Below are positions 1,945-19,225 of a stretch of 64,000 nucleotides of DNA, in pieces. The position numbers and the translations under genes were made by a program. Position 1 is the first letter of the stretch. Each line of letters starts with the position of its first letter. The notes below the pieces were generated by a model. The model did not search any database. It was not told the origin of the DNA and worked only from the letters and a program-made list of their open reading frames with translations. This DNA comes from a virus, in IMG/VR virus record IMGVR_UViG_3300021963_000051, positions 32,001-96,000 of that record, one strand, 5' to 3'.

Positions 1945-2958
1945 ATGGCATTGTTTAAAAAGGTAGCATGTTTCACAGACTTACATGTAGGTGCTAAATC
2001 AAATAGCACAGTCCATTTACAAGACTGTGAAGAATTTGTAGATTGGTTTATTGAAAATGCCCAACGTGAAAATTGCGAAACCGCAATCTTTCTCGGAGAT
2101 TGGAGCCATAACCGAAACAGTCTAAATTTATACACATTAGATACAAGTTTGAGATTATTAGAAAAACTTGGCGCAGCATTTGAACAATTCTTTTGGTTTC
2201 CAGGCAATCACGATCTGTTCTATAAAGATAAACGTGATATTCACAGTTCAGCATTTGGCAGGCATATTCCAGGCGTTACTGTCGTAGACACTGTGACCAC
2301 TCTAGGTGATGTAACTTTAGTTCCCTGGTTGATAGGTGACGAATGGAAAGCAATGAAAAGCGTAAAGAGCAAATATGTGTTCGGACATTTTGAACTACCG
2401 AAATTTATGATGAATGCCATGGTTCAGATGCCCGATCACGGCGAACTTCGTGCTGAAGATTTTCGAGGTCCTGACTATGTGTTTAGTGGGCACTTTCATA
2501 AACGTCAACAGAACGGTTGTGTGATATATATAGGCAATGCCTTTGCTCATAATTATTCAGATGCTTGGGATGATGATCGAGGAATGATGACCTTAGATTG
2601 GGGTGGAGAGCCAAAGTTTCACAACTGGGAAAATGCTCCGAAATTTAGAACAATCAAACTCAGTGACCTCATTGATCGCAAAGATGAACTGATGAAATCA
2701 AAAATGTATCTAAGAGTGAACCTAGATATAGATATAAGTTTTGAAGAAGCTAACTTCATTAAAGAAGAATTTACAAAAACATATGATATAAGAGAAATGA
2801 GTCTTATTCAAGATAAAAGTAACTTAGAAGCTTCTTATGAGGACAATCCAGATACTAAATTTGAAAGCATAGATCAAATTGTATCCGAGCAACTGACCAA
2901 TTTAGACAGCGGTAATTTTGACAAAAAACTATTAATGGACATTTACAATGACCTTTAA
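1945..2958 (+). CDS. gp47: Recombination endonuclease subunit (Mre11/SbcD-like)
   Basis: Metallophosphoesterase motifs DLH, GD, GNHD, GHF, SGHFH. Confidence 0.92.
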   Translation: MALFKKVACFTDLHVGAKSNSTVHLQDCEEFVDWFIENAQRENCETAIFLGDWSHNRNSLNLYTLDTSLRLLEKLGAAFEQFFWFPGNHDLFYKDKRDIHSSAFGRHIPGVTVVDTVTTLGDVTLVPWLIGDEWKAMKSVKSKYVFGHFELPKFMMNAMVQMPDHGELRAEDFRGPDYVFSGHFHKRQQNGCVIYIGNAFAHNYSDAWDDDRGMMTLDWGGEPKFHNWENAPKFRTIKLSDLIDRKDELMKSKMYLRVNLDIDISFEEANFIKEEFTKTYDIREMSLIQDKSNLEASYEDNPDTKFESIDQIVSEQLTNLDSGNFDKKLLMDIYNDL

Positions 2959-4735
2959 AATTCAATCATTAACAGTGAAGAATTTTATGAGTGTGGGCAA
3001 TCAAACTCAAGCCGTTGATTTTGATCAAGAGCAGTTGACCCTGGTGTTAGGATCTAATCTTGACCTGGGTGGCGATGACACAGGTTCCAGAAATGGCACA
3101 GGCAAGACCACAATAATCAACGCCTTGAGTTATGGCCTATATGGTCAGGCATTGACCAACATTAAAAAAGAAAATCTAATCAACAAGATCAATAATAAAC
3201 ATATGTTGGTCACAGTTGAATTTGAAAAGAACAATCTAAATTATCGCATCGAACGTGGTCGTAAACCCAACATTCTCAAATTATTTGTCAACAATCAAGA
3301 AATTACCGCAGACAATCAAGGAGACGATGAAAGCCAAGGTGACAGCAGAGAAACACAAAAGTCAATTGAACAAATGTTAGAAATGAGTCATACCATGTTC
3401 AAACACCTTGTGGCTCTCAATACCTATACCGAACCTTTCTTGGCCATGCGGGCTGCTGATCAACGTGAAGTTATTGAACAACTGTTAGGCATAACCCTAT
3501 TGTCAGCAAAGGCAGAAGAATTAAAAAATCGTATAAAAGAAAACAAAGATTTAATTGCCAGAGAAAATTTTAGAATTGAAGGTATCAAATCAGCCAACGA
3601 AAATGTTCAGAAGAGTATAGAAAGTCTAAAACTAAAAAGTTCGGCGTGGTTCAATAAACATGACCAAGAATTAGAATCATTAGGTCGTGCCATTGTTAAT
3701 CTTGAAGCAGTAGATATTGAAGCGGAGATACAGGCGCATACAGCCTTAAAAACGTGGTCGGACAATGATAAAAAATTAACCGGCTTAAGAAAACAAAAGG
3801 CAACTTTGGAAACTGCTGTCATGCAGGCAGAAAAGACTGTGAAAAAATACACAGCAGAAGTAGAAAAATTAAAAGATCATAAATGCCATGCTTGCGATCA
3901 AAAACTTCAAGATCATAAACATAAAGAAATGTTAGATGATGCTATCAAGCATAAGATAGAAGCAGATGAATATGCTTTAAAAGTAGTCAATGACTACGGA
4001 CTTGTTGTCAATGACATTGAAAAAATCGGCAACCAAGGAGCAAAGCCTACTACATTTTACGAAACTGAAGCAGAAGCATTAGGTCATAAAAACAATTTAG
4101 GCAACTTAGAAAAGGCACTGATACAAAAATCAGAAGAATCCAATCCCTATGAAGAACAAATTGATGAACTAAAAAATTCTGCCATACAAGAAATAGACTG
4201 GACAGTAATAAACGAATTGACCAAGTTGCGTGATCATCAGGACTTTCTTTTGAAATTGTTGACAAATAAAGATAGTTTCATACGAAAGCGTATTATCGAT
4301 CAAAATCTTTCATATCTTAATAAAAGGTTAAGTTATTATATTGACAAATTAGGATTACCGCATCGTGTGGTGTTTCAAAATGATCTCACAGTGGAAATAA
4401 CTCAACTGGGACAGGATTTAGACTTTGATAATCTCAGCAGGGGTGAACGTAATAGATTAATTTTGAGTATGAGTTTTGCCTTTAGAGACGTATGGGAAGG
4501 ACTATACCAACCTATCAACTTATTATTCATTGATGAACTTGTCGATTCGGGCATGGATTCAGCTGGTGTAGAAAGTGCTTTGGCAGTATTGAAAAAAATG
4601 GGCAGGGAACGTAATAAGAATATATACCTTATCAGTCACAAAGATGAGCTACAGGGCAGAGTAAACAACGTACTAAGAGTAGTAAAAGAAAATGGATTTA
4701 CTAGTTACTCAAACAGTTTAGAATATGTCAACTGA
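2948..4735 (+). CDS. gp46: Recombination ATPase subunit (Rad50/SbcC-like)
   Basis: Walker A NGTGKT, coiled coil with CHAC zinc hook, LSRGE signature, Walker B LLFIDE, ISH. Confidence 0.93.
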   Translation: MTFKIQSLTVKNFMSVGNQTQAVDFDQEQLTLVLGSNLDLGGDDTGSRNGTGKTTIINALSYGLYGQALTNIKKENLINKINNKHMLVTVEFEKNNLNYRIERGRKPNILKLFVNNQEITADNQGDDESQGDSRETQKSIEQMLEMSHTMFKHLVALNTYTEPFLAMRAADQREVIEQLLGITLLSAKAEELKNRIKENKDLIARENFRIEGIKSANENVQKSIESLKLKSSAWFNKHDQELESLGRAIVNLEAVDIEAEIQAHTALKTWSDNDKKLTGLRKQKATLETAVMQAEKTVKKYTAEVEKLKDHKCHACDQKLQDHKHKEMLDDAIKHKIEADEYALKVVNDYGLVVNDIEKIGNQGAKPTTFYETEAEALGHKNNLGNLEKALIQKSEESNPYEEQIDELKNSAIQEIDWTVINELTKLRDHQDFLLKLLTNKDSFIRKRIIDQNLSYLNKRLSYYIDKLGLPHRVVFQNDLTVEITQLGQDLDFDNLSRGERNRLILSMSFAFRDVWEGLYQPINLLFIDELVDSGMDSAGVESALAVLKKMGRERNKNIYLISHKDELQGRVNNVLRVVKENGFTSYSNSLEYVN

Positions 4736-5063: not shown

Positions 5064-5223
5064 AGAATTTATAAAAGAAGATACTAAATTTACCAGCGGC
5101 AATGCAGCAGCAGGAACTCGTGCTCGTAAAGCTCTAGCAGAAATTTCTAAAACCGCCAAGGCTAGACGCAACGAAATTACAGAAGAAAAAAATGCTCGTA
5201 AGGAAGCTAAGGCAACCAAATGA
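5026..5223 (+). CDS. Histone H1-like (Hc1-like) small DNA-binding protein
   Basis: 65 aa with GNAAAGTRARKAL motif and a basic helical tail. Confidence 0.65.
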   Translation: METTTTQLQKLFEEFIKEDTKFTSGNAAAGTRARKALAEISKTAKARRNEITEEKNARKEAKATK

Positions 5224-5945
5224 TTGAAAATAAATTCAACGACTTATGTTGCAAAGTATGCGGTGGAAACACTAAAGTTTATGGTATAGTAGACTTCAAC
5301 AAAAGTTGCGAGGAATTGAATGGTAAATTTTTACCTTACTCAGGGCAAGCTGTTTATTATCATCAATGTACCAACTGCCAATTTATTTTCACAACAGACT
5401 TTGACAATTGGACATTGACAGATTTCTCAGATAAAATCTACAACGATGATTATGAATTAGTTGATCCCGAATATTGGGAAACTAGACCTAAAAATCTAGC
5501 TAAATGGATTCAACCCTTACTTAACGGTAACAAAGAACTAAACATTTTTGATTATGGTGCAGGAACCGCGGTGTTTGGTGATGAATTAGAAGATCAGGGA
5601 TATACAGTTGATTCTTGGGATCCATTATGGGAAGACCCGTTAGACGAAAGTAAAAAAAATTCTTATGATGTTGTTACAGCATTTGAAGTCTTAGAACATA
5701 GTCCTACTCCTTTTGAAACAGCTAAGGAAATAGCTGATTTCAGTAAAAAAGGAGAAGGACAATTAGTTATTATGACTTTAGCTAATGATATCATTAGAGG
5801 TGAAGGGGTAAACTATTGGTATTTGGCTCCAAGAAATGGACACGTTTGTATGCATAGTAATAAAAGTATAGAAATTTTATTCGACAAATTAGGAATGTAT
5901 GTTCAACATCTAGCTCCAAATACTCATATAGTTTCATGGAAATAG
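5220..5945 (+). CDS. Class I SAM-dependent methyltransferase with N-terminal Zn-binding region
   Basis: CKVC...CTNC; motif I IFDYGAGTA; YDVVTAFEVLEH. Confidence 0.8.
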   Translation: MIENKFNDLCCKVCGGNTKVYGIVDFNKSCEELNGKFLPYSGQAVYYHQCTNCQFIFTTDFDNWTLTDFSDKIYNDDYELVDPEYWETRPKNLAKWIQPLLNGNKELNIFDYGAGTAVFGDELEDQGYTVDSWDPLWEDPLDESKKNSYDVVTAFEVLEHSPTPFETAKEIADFSKKGEGQLVIMTLANDIIRGEGVNYWYLAPRNGHVCMHSNKSIEILFDKLGMYVQHLAPNTHIVSWK

Positions 5946-6380
5946 ATGTCATGGTATTATAAAAATGAAATAATAACCGAATTACCTGACACCACTGTAG
6001 GATTTGTATATATTATAACAAATAAAATTACAGGCAAAAAGTACATAGGCAAAAAATTATCTAAATTTAGCAAAACCACATACAAAACAATAAAATTAAA
6101 AAACGGCACAAAGAAAAAGAAACGAATCAAATCAAAAATAGACTCAGACTGGCAGACATATTACGGCTCAAACGATCAACTTTCAAAAGATGTAGCACAA
6201 TTAGGCACAGACAAATTTCATAGAGAAATATTATATTATTGTAAATCAAAAGCAGAATGTTCATACATTGAGGCACGAGAACAATTCACAAGAAAAGTAT
6301 TAGAATCAGACGAATATTACAACGGACAGATTTCTGTTCGTGTCCATGGCTCCCATATTAAAGGCAAATTACTCGGTTAA
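5946..6380 (+). CDS. Small GIY-YIG family endonuclease
   Basis: GFVYIITN...KKYIGKK, YYGS, later E and YYN residues typical of the GIY-YIG core. No obvious appended DNA-binding domain. Confidence 0.8.
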   Translation: MSWYYKNEIITELPDTTVGFVYIITNKITGKKYIGKKLSKFSKTTYKTIKLKNGTKKKKRIKSKIDSDWQTYYGSNDQLSKDVAQLGTDKFHREILYYCKSKAECSYIEAREQFTRKVLESDEYYNGQISVRVHGSHIKGKLLG

Positions 6381-6793
6381 AGGCTAGCGCAGGCTAAATT
6401 CATGCGCCCTAGACCTGGACTTCGTGTCGCAGGGATGGATCGCTCACCGCCGAAGTGAGAACTCAACCACTACCCTACCCGGATGAAGATCACTAATCGC
6501 CGTGATTTGGTTGTTTGAATAGGTTAAACCCAAGGCAAAAAGACGCTCTTAATAGAGCACGTTTTACAAGTATGATAGCGTATACGTGTAAAGCCGCCGT
6601 TGTATGAAGACTGGGATGGAGGTACCGGACAACCGCCTCTGCTAAACACCCTAACGCTGTGTGACTATGCTACTCAGATGATGCCAAACTTCGCCCGCCC
6701 TGGGCGAAGTGTGACCACTTAATCTAGATGATACTAAAAGACAAAAACGCTTCGAGTCTCGTAGACGAAGAAGCGAACGAACGCAGTTCGTTC
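6381..6793 (+). ncRNA. Candidate large structured non-coding RNA (or structured DNA element such as an origin)
   Basis: About 50% GC by my count in an AT-rich genome, no credible ORF, at least 9 hairpins (e.g. 6414-6433, 6443-6459, 6464-6513, 6563-6592, 6688-6710, 6748-6775, 6775-6793), G-U pairs on the plus strand, and a 7-bp pseudoknot. Confidence 0.65.
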
Positions 6794-6794
6794 A

Positions 6795-6800
6795 TAAATA
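6795..6800 (+). promoter_or_regulatory. Late promoter (TAAATA)
   Basis: Lies 20 nt upstream of ATG 6821, right after the last hairpin. Confidence 0.55.
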
Positions 6801-6820
6801 TTAAAATATCAATACAAAAA

Positions 6821-8233
6821 ATGAAATTATCAAATATTATTATAGAACAACATTTAAAAGATGGATTAATTCTATTAGAGTCTGTATGTCAAAATCTGAC
6901 TGAGGAACAATCTAGGATTATTAAGGGAATTTATAATGAATTTAAACCTTTAATAGAAGCAAGTTTAAGCCAAGATCAGATACTACAAGTATTCACAGGT
7001 GTTGAACAACAGGCAACAGGATCGGGTAATAATAGGACACTGATAGGTAAAGGGGTTGATCTTAAAAATCAAGTAAACGATATAATCAATAAAACAGGGC
7101 AATGGCTTCAAAATACCGCTCCGGTACAGTTCGCTGATCAGAAGTTTGAAGAACTTAAAACAAAAGTTGCTGCTAAGTTCCCTAACTTAGATCGTCAACT
7201 TACTGATCTTGGTACCTGGATGAAAGACAATCCAGGTAAAAGTGCTGCTATCATTGGCGTATTAACTGCTATTGCTTCATTGGCGGGTGGACCTGCAGGT
7301 GGTGCTATAGCTGGACAGGCTCTTAGGGGTGCTGCTGAACTTATAAAAGGTGAAAAACTTTCAACTGCTGTTGGAAAGGGTATTAAAACTGCGGCATTAG
7401 GTTATCTTTCAGGTAAAGCATTTCAGATGCTTGGCGACTGGGTAGGTAGTTTTAGAGAACAATCAATACCATTTGGTCCGGAAAATACTGGCCTTGAAAA
7501 AGTTAGTTGGGGTGCTCGCAGTTCGATTACAGGTCCTGGAATGGAATGGACAAGGACTACACAGGGATTTAACGCATTAGTTCGTCCTCAAGAAGCAGAA
7601 GTCATTAGAACAGCAATGGCAGGAATCAAAGCAGGAGAACCTGGTGCATTTGATACATTGTATAAGGTAGCAAGAGAAGTAAACTCAAAAGAATATAAGC
7701 AGGCCTTAAATGGTGTAGTTCAAGGAGCCTGGGAAGCAGCTAAGTCTAATGATAGTATACTTCAATTTATTAACGTTACAAAACAAGGATTGCAAGCAGG
7801 TGCGCAAGGTGCTGTTGCAGCGTCAACTGGCAGCAAATCTACTACAAAAACAGAAAGTTTAACTAAATCCACAATAAACAAATTATTTTATAATGTAGAT
7901 CGAGCCAATATGGTATTAGATGAAGGTATATTTGATAAGATTAAACAATTTGGTCAAAACTTAACCACTAAGATCACCGCAGATAAATTAAAAACAGCGT
8001 GGACTAAGGCAGGGTCTCCTACAGATAGCGATCAAGTTGCACATTTTTTAAAACAGGCCGGTGTAAATGACACTATAATTTCTAAGGTGTTTGGTGATAT
8101 GAATATTTCTTATTCGGGAAAAACAACACCTTCAACTAACAATCAAACGGTAAATACCAATGATATTGTAGTGAGAATACAAAAACTAACTCCTGCGCAA
8201 CAAAAAGAAATTTTAGCCTTACTAGGGAAATAA
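6821..8233 (+). CDS. Hypothetical protein, putative internal head/ejection protein
   Basis: Start moved from 6728 (inside the structured element) to ATG 6821. Has a hydrophobic Gly-zipper AAIIGVLTAIASLAGGPAGGAIAG and hydrophobic-x-E motifs (LLLES, LIEAS, VLDEG). Confidence 0.6.
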   Translation: MKLSNIIIEQHLKDGLILLESVCQNLTEEQSRIIKGIYNEFKPLIEASLSQDQILQVFTGVEQQATGSGNNRTLIGKGVDLKNQVNDIINKTGQWLQNTAPVQFADQKFEELKTKVAAKFPNLDRQLTDLGTWMKDNPGKSAAIIGVLTAIASLAGGPAGGAIAGQALRGAAELIKGEKLSTAVGKGIKTAALGYLSGKAFQMLGDWVGSFREQSIPFGPENTGLEKVSWGARSSITGPGMEWTRTTQGFNALVRPQEAEVIRTAMAGIKAGEPGAFDTLYKVAREVNSKEYKQALNGVVQGAWEAAKSNDSILQFINVTKQGLQAGAQGAVAASTGSKSTTKTESLTKSTINKLFYNVDRANMVLDEGIFDKIKQFGQNLTTKITADKLKTAWTKAGSPTDSDQVAHFLKQAGVNDTIISKVFGDMNISYSGKTTPSTNNQTVNTNDIVVRIQKLTPAQQKEILALLGK

Positions 8234-8234
8234 C

Positions 8235-9089
8235 ATGAGAATAACTGAAATATTAAGTGAAAATCAAATTGACGAAGGATTCAAAGACGCCCTAGCAAAA
8301 GGAGTAGGTGGAGTAGCACAAGGTATTGGAGCCACAGCAGGTGGATTGGCAGGGGCTTGGGGACGTATGAAACAAGGTTATCAGGCAGGAAAAGCAGCCG
8401 TAGCTAATCCCGATGCTTACTTTGCTCAGCAAGACCAGCAGCCTATTGCAGCGAATACTGCTACAAATGCTTCTTCAACAACACCACCTACAGGTTCTGC
8501 TACAACACCTCCAGCAGGCGCTCCGGCACCAACTCCTGCTACAACTACAGCTCCTGCTCCTCAAGCCACGCCTGACGAATTACAAGACCTTAAGAATATT
8601 ATTGGAAAATTAAATCCTGATCAAAAACAAGACATAGCAGCACAATTGACCAAACCTGAAATACAACAACCTTCAGAGCCTGCAGCTACACCAGCTCCTG
8701 CAGCTACACCAGCTCCTGCAGGTACAAGTGTAGACATAGGACAGGTTAAACAACAAAGTGCTCAAAAGGCACAGGCAGCACAGGCTGACAAACAAACAGC
8801 TCAACAACAAATTGCCGCGACTCAAGCAGCTAATGCAGCAAAAGCCAAACAAGATGCGGCTGTAAAAGCAGCAAAGGACACTGCTATGGCAAAACCAGGA
8901 TTCCAACAGACAGCAGCGGACAAGTTAGCCATACAAAAAGCACAGCAAATGGGCATCAGAGAAGCAGTTAAGGAAAGCAAACAACCTAAAAAACCTGCTC
9001 CTAAACAACCAGCCAAGAAACCTGTTCCAGGTAAGAAGAAAAAAATAGTTGTAGAATTTAACAGTAAATTTTTAGGACAAAAGATTTAG
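8235..9089 (+). CDS. Ala/Pro/Gln-rich hypothetical protein, putative internal head protein
   Basis: N-terminus MRITEILSENQIDEG, Gly-rich amphipathic segment, low-complexity linker. Confidence 0.6.
   Translation: MRITEILSENQIDEGFKDALAKGVGGVAQGIGATAGGLAGAWGRMKQGYQAGKAAVANPDAYFAQQDQQPIAANTATNASSTTPPTGSATTPPAGAPAPTPATTTAPAPQATPDELQDLKNIIGKLNPDQKQDIAAQLTKPEIQQPSEPAATPAPAATPAPAGTSVDIGQVKQQSAQKAQAAQADKQTAQQQIAATQAANAAKAKQDAAVKAAKDTAMAKPGFQQTAADKLAIQKAQQMGIREAVKESKQPKKPAPKQPAKKPVPGKKKKIVVEFNSKFLGQKI
8679..8721 (+). repeat. 18-bp tandem repeat (CCTGCAGCTACACCAGCT x2.4) encoding PAATPA
   Basis: Exact copies at 8679-8696 and 8697-8714, plus a partial copy. Confidence 0.9.
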
Positions 9090-18677: not shown

Positions 18678-18701
18678 TAGTTTATATACAGATGATACAC
18701 G

Positions 18702-18725
18702 AAGCCCGCTAAATGCGGGCTTTTT
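18702..18725 (+). terminator. Intrinsic terminator after the capsid gene
   Basis: AAGCCCGC-TAAAT-GCGGGCTT followed by a T run. Confidence 0.9.
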
Positions 18726-18799
18726 GTTAAATATAAAGTCTTTATGATTTATGCGGCACCCACCGCGTAGGGCATAGAACGCTCAATAAGGAGAAACAA

Positions 18800-19225
18800 A
18801 TGGGACGTCCATTAAAGAAAAAATTTTTTAGCGCAAATGCTAATAATAACATTAAAGTACAATTTCATAACGGTACTTCAAGCGTAGCTGGTTACATTGT
18901 TCACCAAGTAGGTGCTCGTAGATTTCAGTGTAGTGACGGAACAAATCGAAGAGTATGTAAATTAGTGAACAAAGCCTCTGCAGCTATTGCGGCTGGGGAA
19001 ATGACCATTACAGTGAAACAAGATGATGGTACTATAGATCAAGTTCTTAAAATTTCAGGAAGAATGCTAACAACCTTAAATGCTGGTGGCAATACGATTC
19101 GTAGACCTTGGAATTTCAGTACTTCAACTAGTGACAGTTATGTGCAAGTTGAAGAAGCTGGTACTTCGACTAGCGCAGTTACAACAGCAACTGGTGCAAC
19201 CAACCTTGAAGGTGATGCTCAGTAA
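18800..19225 (+). CDS. Hypothetical protein, likely abundant virion (head decoration?) protein
   Basis: Stand-alone unit: late promoter 18728-18733, structured leader, AAGGAG RBS and its own terminator. Confidence 0.6.
   Translation: MGRPLKKKFFSANANNNIKVQFHNGTSSVAGYIVHQVGARRFQCSDGTNRRVCKLVNKASAAIAAGEMTITVKQDDGTIDQVLKISGRMLTTLNAGGNTIRRPWNFSTSTSDSYVQVEEAGTSTSAVTTATGATNLEGDAQ

What the first reader, a model, noticed from the sequence alone, without database searches (positions are those of the whole stretch)
5946..6793. Minimal GIY-YIG nuclease followed directly by a ~410-nt highly structured non-coding element
Seen: the element starts at the nuclease stop codon and is ~50% GC. It is the largest non-coding gap in an otherwise tightly packed window. 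Helices: GCGCA/TGCGC (6387-6407), CCTG-GAC/GTC-CAGG (6414-6433), CTCAC/GTGAG (6443-6459), CAACCA/TGGTTG (6464-6513) enclosing GATCAC/GTGATT, GCTCT/AGAGC (6545-6558), TTTACA-GTAT/ATAC-TGTAAA (6563-6592), GGAGG-CGG/CCG-CCTCT (6618-6640), and a perfect 9-bp stem at 6688-6710. The loop ATAGCGT (6575-6581) can pair with ACGCTGT (6654-6660), giving a pseudoknot. Several G-U pairs favour a plus-strand RNA. The nuclease lacks the C-terminal DNA-binding domain of homing GIY-YIG enzymes but has a very basic hairpin (KTIKLKNGTKKKKRIK). Inference: a nuclease-RNA ribonucleoprotein (possibly RNA-guided, by analogy to OMEGA/HEARO systems), a new ribozyme or large ncRNA, or a nuclease-linked replication origin. 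I do not recognise it as a known family.
Basis: partly seen in the sequence, partly recalled or inferred. Interest (0 to 1): 0.85.

Follow-up and report, generated by a model that had tools for sequence, protein, structure and literature searches.

The report
Twin-box phage RNA behind swappable nuclease
The gene-free stretch behind a small nuclease gene of this uncultured giant T4-like freshwater phage is a real, triply knotted non-coding RNA of about 415 bases; its first third is the orphan Rfam motif Polynucleobacter-1, its tail carries one fast-changing 7-letter word twice, and the nuclease is an interchangeable neighbour, not an RNA-guided partner.

Summary
Window 6382-~6797 (+) is a structured RNA gene. 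Positions 6382-6516 match Rfam RF01718 (Polynucleobacter-1) at 105.7 bits. The rest (6517-~6797) is uncatalogued but conserved in more than 160 phage contigs. On 55 sequences, 72 base pairs in 14 helices, including three pseudoknots, are 95.8% paired, and 46 pairs show compensatory changes.

Two 7-nt boxes (6676-6682 and 6726-6732) are identical in 102 of 106 loci. They changed together at least 26 times, and no covarying partner was found in cis.

The RNA-guided-nuclease reading is not supported:
- The GIY-YIG family occurs without the RNA in cultured phages.
- The RNA occurs without it in Polynucleobacter islands, there beside DUF6641 and a short tyrosine recombinase.
- In other phage contigs the same slot holds an unrelated PD-(D/E)XK resolvase-like nuclease.
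- Nuclease type switched at least 8 times on the RNA tree.
- The swap breakpoint lies at the RNA's 5' end.

Best reading: an autonomous RNA gene of unknown trans function, flanked by a cassette slot for mobile or interchangeable endonuclease genes, as with T4 segB in the tRNA cluster.

This scan had already found the twin-box RNA on other genomes.

The parts
2948..4735 (+). gp46/SbcC-like recombination nuclease subunit. It is the left landmark of the variable slot that ends at the RNA.
   Evidence: phrog_77 E 7.9e-98 and SMC_N/AAA_23. In L157 vs L123, homology upstream of the nuclease slot resumes in this gene.
5220..5945 (+). Methyltransferase gene, a variable occupant of the slot
   Evidence: PF13489 E 2.5e-21. 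Among the related loci it is present only in L013.
5946..6380 (+). Small GIY-YIG endonuclease gene (144 aa, SegE-type catalytic domain only). It is a swappable cassette directly 5' of the RNA.
   Evidence: PF19835 E 1.8e-31; phrog_447. A homolog ends 31-73 nt before the core motif in about 109 of 118 assessable contigs. Motif residues are conserved in 84 distinct homologs. One copy per record.
6382..6516 (+). 5' domain of the RNA, equal to Rfam Polynucleobacter-1 (RF01718). Helices: P1 6387-91/6403-07, P2 6409-20/6426-38, P3 6441-46/6456-60, P4 6464-69/6508-13, P5 6488-93/6502-07. Small pseudoknot: 6382-84 x 6393-95.
   Evidence: cmscan 105.7 bits, model 1-141 of 141. Pair counts.
6517..6562 (+). 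Conserved single-stranded linker (UUGUUUGAA, AAGGCAAAAAGA) and variable hairpin P6 (6545-49/6554-58)
   Evidence: Alignment A1. The hairpin is kept with different sequences in 78 of 81 RNAs.
6563..6592 (+). Hairpin P7; its loop 6575-6581 forms pseudoknot PK1
   Evidence: All 10 pairs covary.
6575..6660 (+). Pseudoknot PK1: 6575-6581 pairs with 6654-6660
   Evidence: 7 of 7 pairs with compensatory changes, 97.6% paired.
6599..6651 (+). Knotted core: P8 6599-6603 x 6629-6633 crosses P9 6613-15 x 6649-51 and P10 6620-22 x 6636-38. Contains the near-invariant GGUACCGGACAACCGCC.
   Evidence: P9: 3 of 3 pairs covary; P8: 3 of 5. The anchor is present in nearly all viral loci.
6659..6683 (+). Module A: GUGUGAC, spacer, head ACUC, 7-nt box 1 (6676-6682 AGAUGAU)
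6689..6709 (+). Hairpin P11 between the two boxes
   Evidence: 8 pairs, 94.3% paired, 3 with double changes.
6709..6733 (+). Module B: GUGUGAC, spacer, head AUCU, 7-nt box 2 (6726-6732 AGAUGAU), identical to box 1
   Evidence: Boxes identical in 102 of 106 loci with 10-11 words. MI between copies 0.92-1.0, against at most 0.6 for any other column. At least 26 concerted changes on the tree.
6749..6793 (+). 3' tail hairpins: 6749-53/6770-74 with an inner mini-stem, and 6775-82/6786-93. Probable 3' end region of the RNA.
   Evidence: Fold -20.2 kcal/mol, z -3.35. The conserved block between distant loci runs to +415..+470 from the motif. A similar 'GAG-minihairpin-GAA' hairpin was seen by eye in most tails.
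6821..8233 (+). Downstream gene (470 aa, no family); not part of the element
   Evidence: No Pfam or PHROG hit. Present downstream in only 4 related loci.

Best explanation
Window 6382-~6797 (+) is an autonomous gene for a non-coding RNA of about 415 nt. It is the full-length form of the orphan Rfam motif Polynucleobacter-1.

Shown:
- The RNA folds into 14 or more helices with three pseudoknots.
- Its 3' domain, not the catalogued 5' domain, is the more widely conserved part.
- That domain displays two single-stranded copies of one 7-nt word, each behind a GUGUGAC-spacer-A(CUC/UCU) module, on either side of hairpin P11.
- The two copies are kept identical through many changes of the word.

Inferred:
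- One reader, a short complementary nucleic-acid loop or a dimeric protein, reads both boxes. The RNA therefore acts in trans as a rigid scaffold that holds two copies of the same partner.
- The RNA is probably made as the 3' part of the nuclease transcript. No promoter-like site lies just upstream of it, and the stop codon abuts it.

The GIY-YIG gene is not its partner in an RNP. It is one of at least two unrelated small endonuclease genes (GIY-YIG, or an Hjc/RusA-annotated PD-(D/E)XK) that occupy, one at a time, a cassette slot between the gp46-like gene and the RNA's 5' end, and they have replaced each other repeatedly. The most likely relation is at the DNA level. Either a free-standing homing-type nuclease parks beside a very conserved RNA gene and drags it along, as T4 segB does in the tRNA cluster, or interchangeable junction-cutting nucleases are exchanged by recombination at this hot spot.
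For: RNA gene:
- RF01718 hit at 105.7 bits.
- Conserved block 6382-~6735 and beyond in about 100 loci.
- 95.8% pairing; 46 of 72 pairs with compensatory changes; 0 of 500 shuffles as good.
- P6 kept in place with different sequences.

Twin boxes:
- Identical in 102 of 106 loci and in 42 of 46 PD-linked RNAs.
- Same rule in the bacterial copies, with other words.
- At least 26 concerted changes with the boxes masked from the tree.
- No third covarying column.

Independence from the nuclease:
- Four cultured-phage homologs of the nuclease (the three Kyanoviridae records and BUCT-ZZ01) lack RF01718 downstream; three of these homologs sit beside nrdA/B instead.
- Bacterial copies have DUF6641 upstream (divergent) and a 188-204-aa tyrosine recombinase downstream, with no nuclease.
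- L108 and L121 carry PF24608 PDDEXK_15 in the same slot, with the stop 36-38 nt before the motif.
- 46 of 78 PDDEXK loci have the RNA downstream and none has a GIY-YIG.
- The two families are single-copy and mutually exclusive in 5 + 5 long records, with positive controls.
- At least 8 switches on the RNA tree against 17-20 in shuffles, several inside strongly supported clades.
- Homology between PD-type and GIY-type loci starts 20-51 nt before the motif, at the RNA's 5' end, and resumes upstream in the gp46-like gene.

Precedent: T4 SegB, a GIY-YIG homing endonuclease in the tRNA gene cluster (PMC2330249; PMC13096335).
Against: - No transcript ends are known. Only small contigs of relatives in two metatranscriptome libraries touch the nuclease gene and parts of the RNA, and DNA carry-over is not excluded.
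'Trans-acting scaffold' is inference from single-strandedness and concerted change.
- The nuclease has no C-terminal DNA-binding domain of the kind Seg homing enzymes carry.
- A nuclease is nearly always present beside the RNA in phages (about 109 of 118), which is not the patchy pattern of a young homing gene.
- The two nuclease families could instead be functional analogues (junction resolvases) of the phage itself.
- Three different DNA-breaking or DNA-joining enzymes beside one RNA (GIY-YIG, PD-(D/E)XK, tyrosine recombinase) could still hint at a functional tie.
Confidence: 0.6

Rival explanations
1. RNA-guided nuclease: the RNA binds the minimal GIY-YIG enzyme, and its variable 7-nt boxes guide it to DNA, as in OMEGA or HEARO systems.
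For: The nuclease has no DNA-binding domain. The stop codon abuts the RNA in about 109 of 118 contigs. The boxes are short, single-stranded, fast-changing and kept identical. Every neighbour is a DNA-cutting or DNA-joining enzyme.
Against: The nuclease family occurs without the RNA, and the RNA occurs without a nuclease in bacteria. An unrelated nuclease fold takes the same slot at least 8 times with no change of the RNA scaffold. Box words overlap between GIY-linked and PD-linked RNAs. No column of the nuclease gene covaries with the boxes. No 11-mer complement exists in the 112 kb of the own record. Two identical guides would address one strand only.
Confidence: 0.03
2. Replication or recombination signal: the transcript, or the folded DNA strand, marks or primes DNA synthesis as T4 origin R-loops and ColE1 RNA II do, with the twin boxes acting like iterons for an initiator.
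For: It lies in the replication/recombination block behind gp46/47. It is single-copy per genome. It is also carried by very small bacterial islands whose other conserved genes are an integrase and DUF6641. Direct repeats flank a hairpin and change in step, as iterons do with their initiator.
Against: The helices contain many G-U pairs and three pseudoknots, typical of a folded RNA rather than duplex DNA sites. No initiator gene is linked. No AT-rich unwinding element or GC-skew evidence was examined. The iterons would be only 7 nt and only two in number.
Confidence: 0.15
3. Cis-acting 3' UTR of the nuclease mRNA: a structured tail that stabilises the upstream message or regulates the upstream nuclease gene.
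For: There is no promoter-like site directly upstream and no gap between the stop codon and the RNA. The same position is kept behind both nuclease types.
Against: In bacteria the RNA stands alone behind its own intergenic region, divergent from DUF6641. About 415 nt with three pseudoknots and invariant single-stranded stretches is far more than a stabiliser needs. In several loci 0.7-1 kb of other genes separate it from the nuclease.
Confidence: 0.1
4. Codon-display RNA: each box shows a codon-like triplet followed by an invariant A (phage AUG/AUA + A; bacteria CGA/CAA + A) and binds the anticodon loop of one tRNA species twice, in the manner of a T-box specifier.
For: Position 6 of the box is A in all phage and bacterial words. 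Positions 3-5 are AUG or AUA in phages and CGA or CAA in bacteria.
Against: This is pattern-reading on a dozen words. Positions 1, 2 and 7 are also kept identical between the boxes, which a 4-nt codon contact does not explain. There is no Rfam T-box match. No K-turn or T-loop platform was identified.
Confidence: 0.07
5. Not an RNA at all: a missed small protein gene or chance folding.
For: ORFs of 30-41 aa exist in the region.
Against: Compensatory changes occur in 46 pairs. Hairpins are conserved in place with unrelated sequences. Indels are not in multiples of three. The Rfam hit has E 7e-22.
Confidence: 0.01

Closest known systems
Polynucleobacter-1 RNA motif (Rfam RF01718; Weinberg et al. 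2010, PMC2864571)
   Same: Window 6382-6516 matches the whole 141-position model at 105.7 bits.
   Different: The catalogued motif is only the 5' third. The real unit is about 415 nt, with two further pseudoknots and the twin boxes. The 3' domain also occurs with a different 5' domain that RF01718 does not detect (19 loci). The 2010 paper found no example in a purified phage; here it is in more than 160 IMG/VR phage contigs.
T4 segB, and seg/mob free-standing homing endonuclease genes of T4-like phages (PMC2330249; PMC13096335)
   Same: A small GIY-YIG gene sits directly beside conserved structured-RNA genes in a T4-like genome. It behaves as a cassette between conserved landmarks and has been replaced by another nuclease family at the same site.
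   Different: The enzyme here is the catalytic domain alone (144 aa) with no C-terminal DNA-binding domain. It is near-universal in RNA-bearing contigs rather than patchy. Cleavage of a nuclease-less allele is untested.
OMEGA / HEARO systems (IscB, TnpB with omega-RNA)
   Same: A large structured RNA is encoded next to a compact nuclease gene, and short variable single-stranded segments are present.
   Different: There is no RuvC or HNH effector, no transposon ends, no obligate linkage, no guide that matches flanking or target DNA, and the nuclease fold is interchangeable.
Large orphan phage-associated RNAs (ROOL, GOLLD; from general knowledge, not tested here)
   Same: Several hundred nucleotides long, ornate, with pseudoknots; phage- or island-borne; function not derivable from neighbouring genes.
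   Different: No sequence or model match. Multimer formation is untested. The twin identical boxes have no described counterpart.

Membership tests
Rfam RF01718 Polynucleobacter-1 | Covariance-model score at or above the gathering score (37 bits) over the full model | tested here: met
   105.7 bits, E 7e-22, model 1-141 of 141, window 6382-6516 +.
Rfam RF01718 Polynucleobacter-1 | The model's helices are supported by compensatory changes | tested here: met
   Helices 2-8: 99-100% paired, with double changes in P1, P3, P4 and P5.
Rfam RF01718 Polynucleobacter-1 | Lies downstream of the GOS11034 gene family (Weinberg 2010 supplement) | not tested
   It lies downstream of one conserved gene family, the GIY-YIG. 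Whether that family is GOS11034 / PSSM2_218 was not checked.
GIY-YIG nuclease superfamily (PF19835 SegE_GIY-YIG) | Profile match and conserved GIY / YIG / Arg / Glu / Asn motif residues | tested here: met
   E 1.8e-31 over residues 3-129. G19-V-Y22, Y33-I-G-K, F-x-R93, E109 and Y-Y-N126 are conserved in 84 distinct homologs.
Free-standing homing endonuclease (Seg type) | C-terminal DNA-binding domain behind the catalytic domain | tested here: not met
   144 aa, of which 127 are the catalytic domain. There is only a basic insertion, KTIKLKNGTKKKKRIK.
Free-standing homing endonuclease (Seg type) | Cassette-like presence or replacement between conserved landmarks in related genomes | tested here: met
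   At least 8 GIY/PD switches on the RNA tree. Breakpoints lie at the RNA's 5' end and in the gp46-like gene.
Free-standing homing endonuclease (Seg type) | Cuts the nuclease-less allele near its own insertion site and is copied in | not testable with these tools
   Needs enzyme assays or co-infection crosses.
RNA-guided nuclease systems (OMEGA/HEARO-like) | Obligate co-occurrence of effector and RNA | tested here: not met
   Nuclease without the RNA; RNA without a nuclease; RNA with another nuclease fold.
RNA-guided nuclease systems (OMEGA/HEARO-like) | A guide segment complementary to a definable target or to the element's flank | tested here: not met
   No covarying partner within -480..+520. 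No 11-mer complement in the 112 kb of the own record, and the 7-mer is not enriched. None in the bacterial islands.

The most novel reading that the evidence does not exclude
The twin boxes are a programmable address. The RNA pairs through its two identical 7-nt words with two copies of a nucleic-acid site, for example the identical crossover or branch sequences of two DNA partners. It thereby recruits or positions whichever junction-processing enzyme is encoded beside it: GIY-YIG or PD-(D/E)XK in phages, and the short tyrosine recombinase that lacks an N-terminal DNA-binding domain in Polynucleobacter islands. That would make it an RNA specificity factor for recombination enzymes of several folds.
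Probability: 0.05. Interest if true: 0.95.

Novelty: new variant of a known kind. Interest (0 to 1): 0.6.

Why it matters
Large, multiply knotted RNAs with invariant single-stranded stretches have in most past cases turned out to be ribozymes, riboswitch-like sensors or RNP scaffolds. This one is abundant in freshwater giant T4-like phages and is shared with tiny mobile islands of culturable Polynucleobacter, so it can be studied at the bench.

The catalogued motif is shown to be only an accessory third of the real molecule. The twin 7-nt words changed in step at least 26 times, which gives a sharp, testable handle on an unknown reader.

The repeated exchange of two unrelated nuclease genes exactly at the RNA's 5' edge is a clean natural example of cassette competition beside a conserved RNA gene. 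It also removes an attractive but wrong 'new RNA-guided nuclease' reading.

Tried and rejected
- Rfam at E up to 10 on 6300-6900: nothing but RF01718. No tRNA or tmRNA in the window.
- blastn of the locus against 50,697 phage records: no match.
- RF01718 downstream of the GIY-YIG homologs of Melnitz, C48C1, S-SRM01 and BUCT-ZZ01: none. The 148-nt gap in Melnitz shows no twin boxes by eye.
- Cis partner for the boxes: MI scan of -480..+520 found none. The U-rich strand 6511-6518 can pair with most phage words through G-U wobble, but it does not compensate the C variants and has no bacterial counterpart, so it was dropped.
- A third AGCGAAA copy in one bacterial RNA is a coincidence with a constant GCGAAAC segment.
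- Trans complement in the own 112-kb record: none.
- The boxes read as att-like core sites with inverted arms, as a DnaA box, as a CsrA site, as a C/D box, or the tail hairpin as a hammerhead core: each fits only some variants, and all were rejected by eye.
- DUF6641 fold (pLDDT 78): no PDB match at E <= 0.001.
- PHROG and Pfam searches on the genes inserted between nuclease and RNA, and on the L057 upstream ORF: no family.
- No DUF6641 and no integrase in the own (30% complete) record.
- Expression: only assembled contigs were available. Two metatranscriptome runs hold short contigs of relatives over the nuclease gene and pieces of the RNA. There are no ends, no strand information and no depth that can be read as transcription.
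- Literature: no paper on an RNA-guided GIY-YIG or tyrosine recombinase of this kind was found in the held library.
Full report
WHAT IS THERE

The window is part of a 111,966-base IMG/VR virus record (CheckV completeness about 30%), so the genome is probably well over 300 kb. Its T4-type genes include gp46/SbcC-like at 2948-4735 and a baseplate-hub-like gene.

ORF 5946-6380 encodes a 144-aa protein that is essentially one SegE-type GIY-YIG catalytic domain (PF19835, E 1.8e-31). From its stop codon to the next credible start (ATG 6821) there is no ORF of note. The stretch is 48.9% G+C, against 37.3% for the window and 30.6% for the nuclease gene. It is the largest ORF-free gap of the window.

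KNOWN PART

cmscan places Rfam RF01718 (Polynucleobacter-1) on 6382-6516 (+) at 105.7 bits (gathering score 37), covering the whole model. Nothing else in Rfam 15 matches 6300-6900, even at E 10.

The only paper in the held library that names the motif is Weinberg et al. 2010 (PMC2864571). Its supplement says:
- the motif occurs in environmental samples and in Polynucleobacter;
- its 3' half is not always detected;
- most examples lie downstream of one gene family;
- none was seen in a purified phage.

THE REAL UNIT IS THREE TIMES LONGER

Nucleotide conservation runs from 6382 to about 6735 in roughly 80-100 of them. Anchors such as GGTACCGGACAACCGCC are present in nearly all. Between more distant loci the conserved block spans -29 to +415..+470 from the motif. 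In the window that reaches the two tail hairpins 6749-6774 and 6775-6793.

STRUCTURE

I tested a structure of 72 pairs in 14 helices on a 55-sequence alignment with at most 90% pairwise identity (A1). Results:
- 95.8% of cells form standard pairs, against 82.2% in shuffles and 35-43% with slid partners.
- 46 pairs have changes on both sides, in 527 cells.
- None of 500 shuffles reaches any of the five measures.

Three pseudoknots are supported:
- 6382-84 x 6393-95.
- 6599-6603 x 6629-33, which crosses 6613-15 x 6649-51 and 6620-22 x 6636-38.

Hairpin P6 (6545-58) is kept in place with unrelated sequences in 78 of 81 RNAs. The many G-U pairs fit a plus-strand transcript.

TWIN BOXES

Near the 3' end two modules repeat: a helix end, then GUGUGAC, a 6-8-nt spacer, A, CUC (module A) or UCU (module B), and a 7-nt word. 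The words sit at 6676-6682 and 6726-6732, on either side of hairpin P11.
- The word is identical in both modules in 102 of 106 loci, with 10-11 different words.
- Per-position agreement is at least 98% although four positions are polymorphic.
- Mutual information between the copies is 0.92-1.0. No other column from -480 to +520, nuclease gene included, exceeds 0.6.
- With the boxes masked from the tree, the word changes at least 26 times among 111 RNAs (shuffles about 74). The same substitution was therefore fixed in both boxes again and again.
- Bacterial copies obey the same rule with other words: AGCGAAA, AACAAAA, AUCGAAA.
- Position 6 is always A. Phage words read R-N-A-U-R-A-N.
- I found no complement in cis, none in the islands, and no 11-mer complement in the 112 kb of the own record.

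The identity must be kept by selection through a single reader, or by an unknown copying process.

IS THE NUCLEASE THE RNA'S PARTNER?

In about 109 of 118 assessable viral contigs a GIY-YIG homolog (62-85% identical) ends 31-73 nt before the motif, while the genes further out differ. That looked like a module. Five results argue against a ribonucleoprotein.

1. The same nuclease family is present once per genome in 491 cultured-phage records. The four homologs examined have no RF01718 downstream, and three of them sit beside nrdA/nrdB, a classic neighbourhood of free-standing homing genes.

2. Bacterial copies lack the nuclease. They form another conserved module:
   - a divergently transcribed DUF6641 gene (PF20346, 145 aa) upstream;
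   - the RNA;
   - in three genomes, a 188-204-aa tyrosine recombinase (catalytic domain only) downstream.
   The RNA is single-copy, was found in 3 of 151 sampled genomes of the family, and lies in different chromosomal places in different Polynucleobacter species.

3. The viral contigs L108 and L121, which have no GIY-YIG, carry a 171-172-aa PD-(D/E)XK nuclease in exactly the same slot, with the stop 36-38 nt before the motif (PF24608; phrog_244, annotated 'RusA-like Holliday junction resolvase'). A search with that protein gave 78 viral loci:
   - 46 have the RNA downstream, 18 of them full length starting 10-30 nt after the stop;
   - 42 of the 46 have twin boxes;
   - none has a GIY-YIG within 2.5 kb.
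   In five long records of each type the other family is absent, and positive controls ring once each.

4. On a tree of 114 RNAs the nuclease type needs at least 8 changes (shuffles 17-20), several of them inside clades with at least 97% SH-aLRT support.

5. Pairwise comparison of PD-type and GIY-type loci with closely related RNAs shows homology that begins 20-51 nt before the motif, at the RNA's 5' end. It runs through the RNA and resumes upstream only in the gp46-like gene.

The nuclease genes are therefore cassettes in a slot bounded by gp46 and the RNA gene. An RNA scaffold that stays the same while its supposed protein partner flips between two unrelated folds is very hard to reconcile with a guide RNP or an RNA antitoxin.

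WHAT THE NEIGHBOURHOOD MOST LIKELY MEANS

The closest precedent is T4 segB, a GIY-YIG homing endonuclease that lives inside the tRNA gene cluster. It secures preferential inheritance, and even amplification, of that RNA-gene region (PMC2330249, PMC13096335).

A very conserved RNA gene is an ideal landing and target site for such genes, and two families competing for one site would give the pattern seen.

An alternative is that both enzymes are the phage's own junction-cutting nuclease, functional analogues exchanged by recombination. Their single copy, mutual exclusivity and the 'resolvase' annotation fit this. I cannot separate the two readings without enzymology. Both put the relation at the DNA or gene-order level.

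A further observation bears on the catalogued family. Nineteen PD-linked loci have the 3' twin-box domain but no RF01718 hit, and a different, shorter 5' domain. The 3' domain is therefore the core, and the catalogued motif is an accessory.

HOW THE RNA LIKELY WORKS (inference)

I infer a rigid, knotted scaffold that displays two identical single-stranded 7-nt words about 50 nt apart. It would act in trans by holding two copies of one partner: a short complementary loop of another nucleic acid, or the two halves of a dimeric protein. I put this at roughly 35-40%.

A replication or recombination signal (about 15%), a cis-acting 3' UTR (about 10%) and a codon-display tRNA binder (about 7%) remain open. 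The guide reading is about 3%.

Transcription is not shown. Only assembled contigs could be laid. Two metatranscriptomes contain short contigs of relatives over the nuclease gene and parts of the RNA, which is a hint at most. No sigma-70-like site lies directly before the RNA and no T-run terminator follows it, so co-transcription with the nuclease gene is likely in the phage. In bacteria the RNA has its own intergenic region.

EARLIER NOTES OF THIS SCAN

The same 'twin-box / extended Polynucleobacter-1' RNA was reported many times on other genomes. Those reports included its presence in nuclease-free Polynucleobacter islands, and a later check put the guide reading at 2/100. I re-derived these points independently.

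- the non-homologous nuclease replacement, with mapped breakpoints and a switch count;
- the DUF6641-RNA-short-integrase module;
- the finding that the 3' domain outlives the Rfam domain;
- the count of concerted box changes.

VERDICT

Relative to the literature it is a new, much larger variant of a known orphan motif with an unexplained twin-box feature.

Noticed in passing
window 18731-18802 (+): A second Rfam hit, freshwater-2 RNA (RF02980, 55.8 bits, gathering score 49.9). It lies in the second largest ORF-free gap of the window (18678-18799).
   Followed up: no
L139 10740-10990 (Polynucleobacter genome G001, just downstream of the DUF6641 gene): A GC-rich stretch of about 250 nt packed with hairpins (for example GGGGCGCACCGCAAGGTAGCCCC and GGTGGCGATAGCTGTCGCCACC), with no Rfam match at E <= 1. 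It is conserved with the island in G174 (query 3213-4591). It may be a second structured RNA of the island.
   Followed up: partly
L139 11313-11379: A 65-nt unit with two short hairpins (GTCCTTTAAAAGGAC, GTCGTTTAAAACGAC) recurs several times per genome at 82-100% identity in many Polynucleobacter genomes. It lies at the right edge of the island. It is REP-like and a possible landing site.
   Followed up: partly
L139 8035-8601 (-), L140 10600-11196 (+), L141 3693-4307 (+): The island's tyrosine recombinases are only 188-204 aa, that is the catalytic domain alone with no N-terminal DNA-binding domain. They are 45-79% identical across three genomes.
   Followed up: partly
L157 vs L109/L123, +420 to +2215 from the motif: The 3' flank of the RNA gene is also an insertion hot spot: about 1.8 kb of extra DNA in L157 before homology resumes.
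   Followed up: no
L016, L023, L029, L084 (between GIY-YIG and RNA); L057 (151-aa ORF in the nuclease slot): Genes of 228-340 aa with no Pfam or PHROG family are inserted between nuclease and RNA in four contigs. In L057 an unassigned 151-aa ORF takes the slot; it may be a third kind of occupant.
   Followed up: partly
window 8235-9089 (+): A 284-aa protein with long low-complexity Ala/Pro/Thr/Gln-rich tracts and no family match.
   Followed up: no
window 6441:6460 vs 6680/6730: Base pair 6441:6460 (G-C or A-U) tracks box position 5 (G or A) in about 80% of RNAs (MI about 0.6). This is either shared ancestry or a tertiary contact.
   Followed up: no
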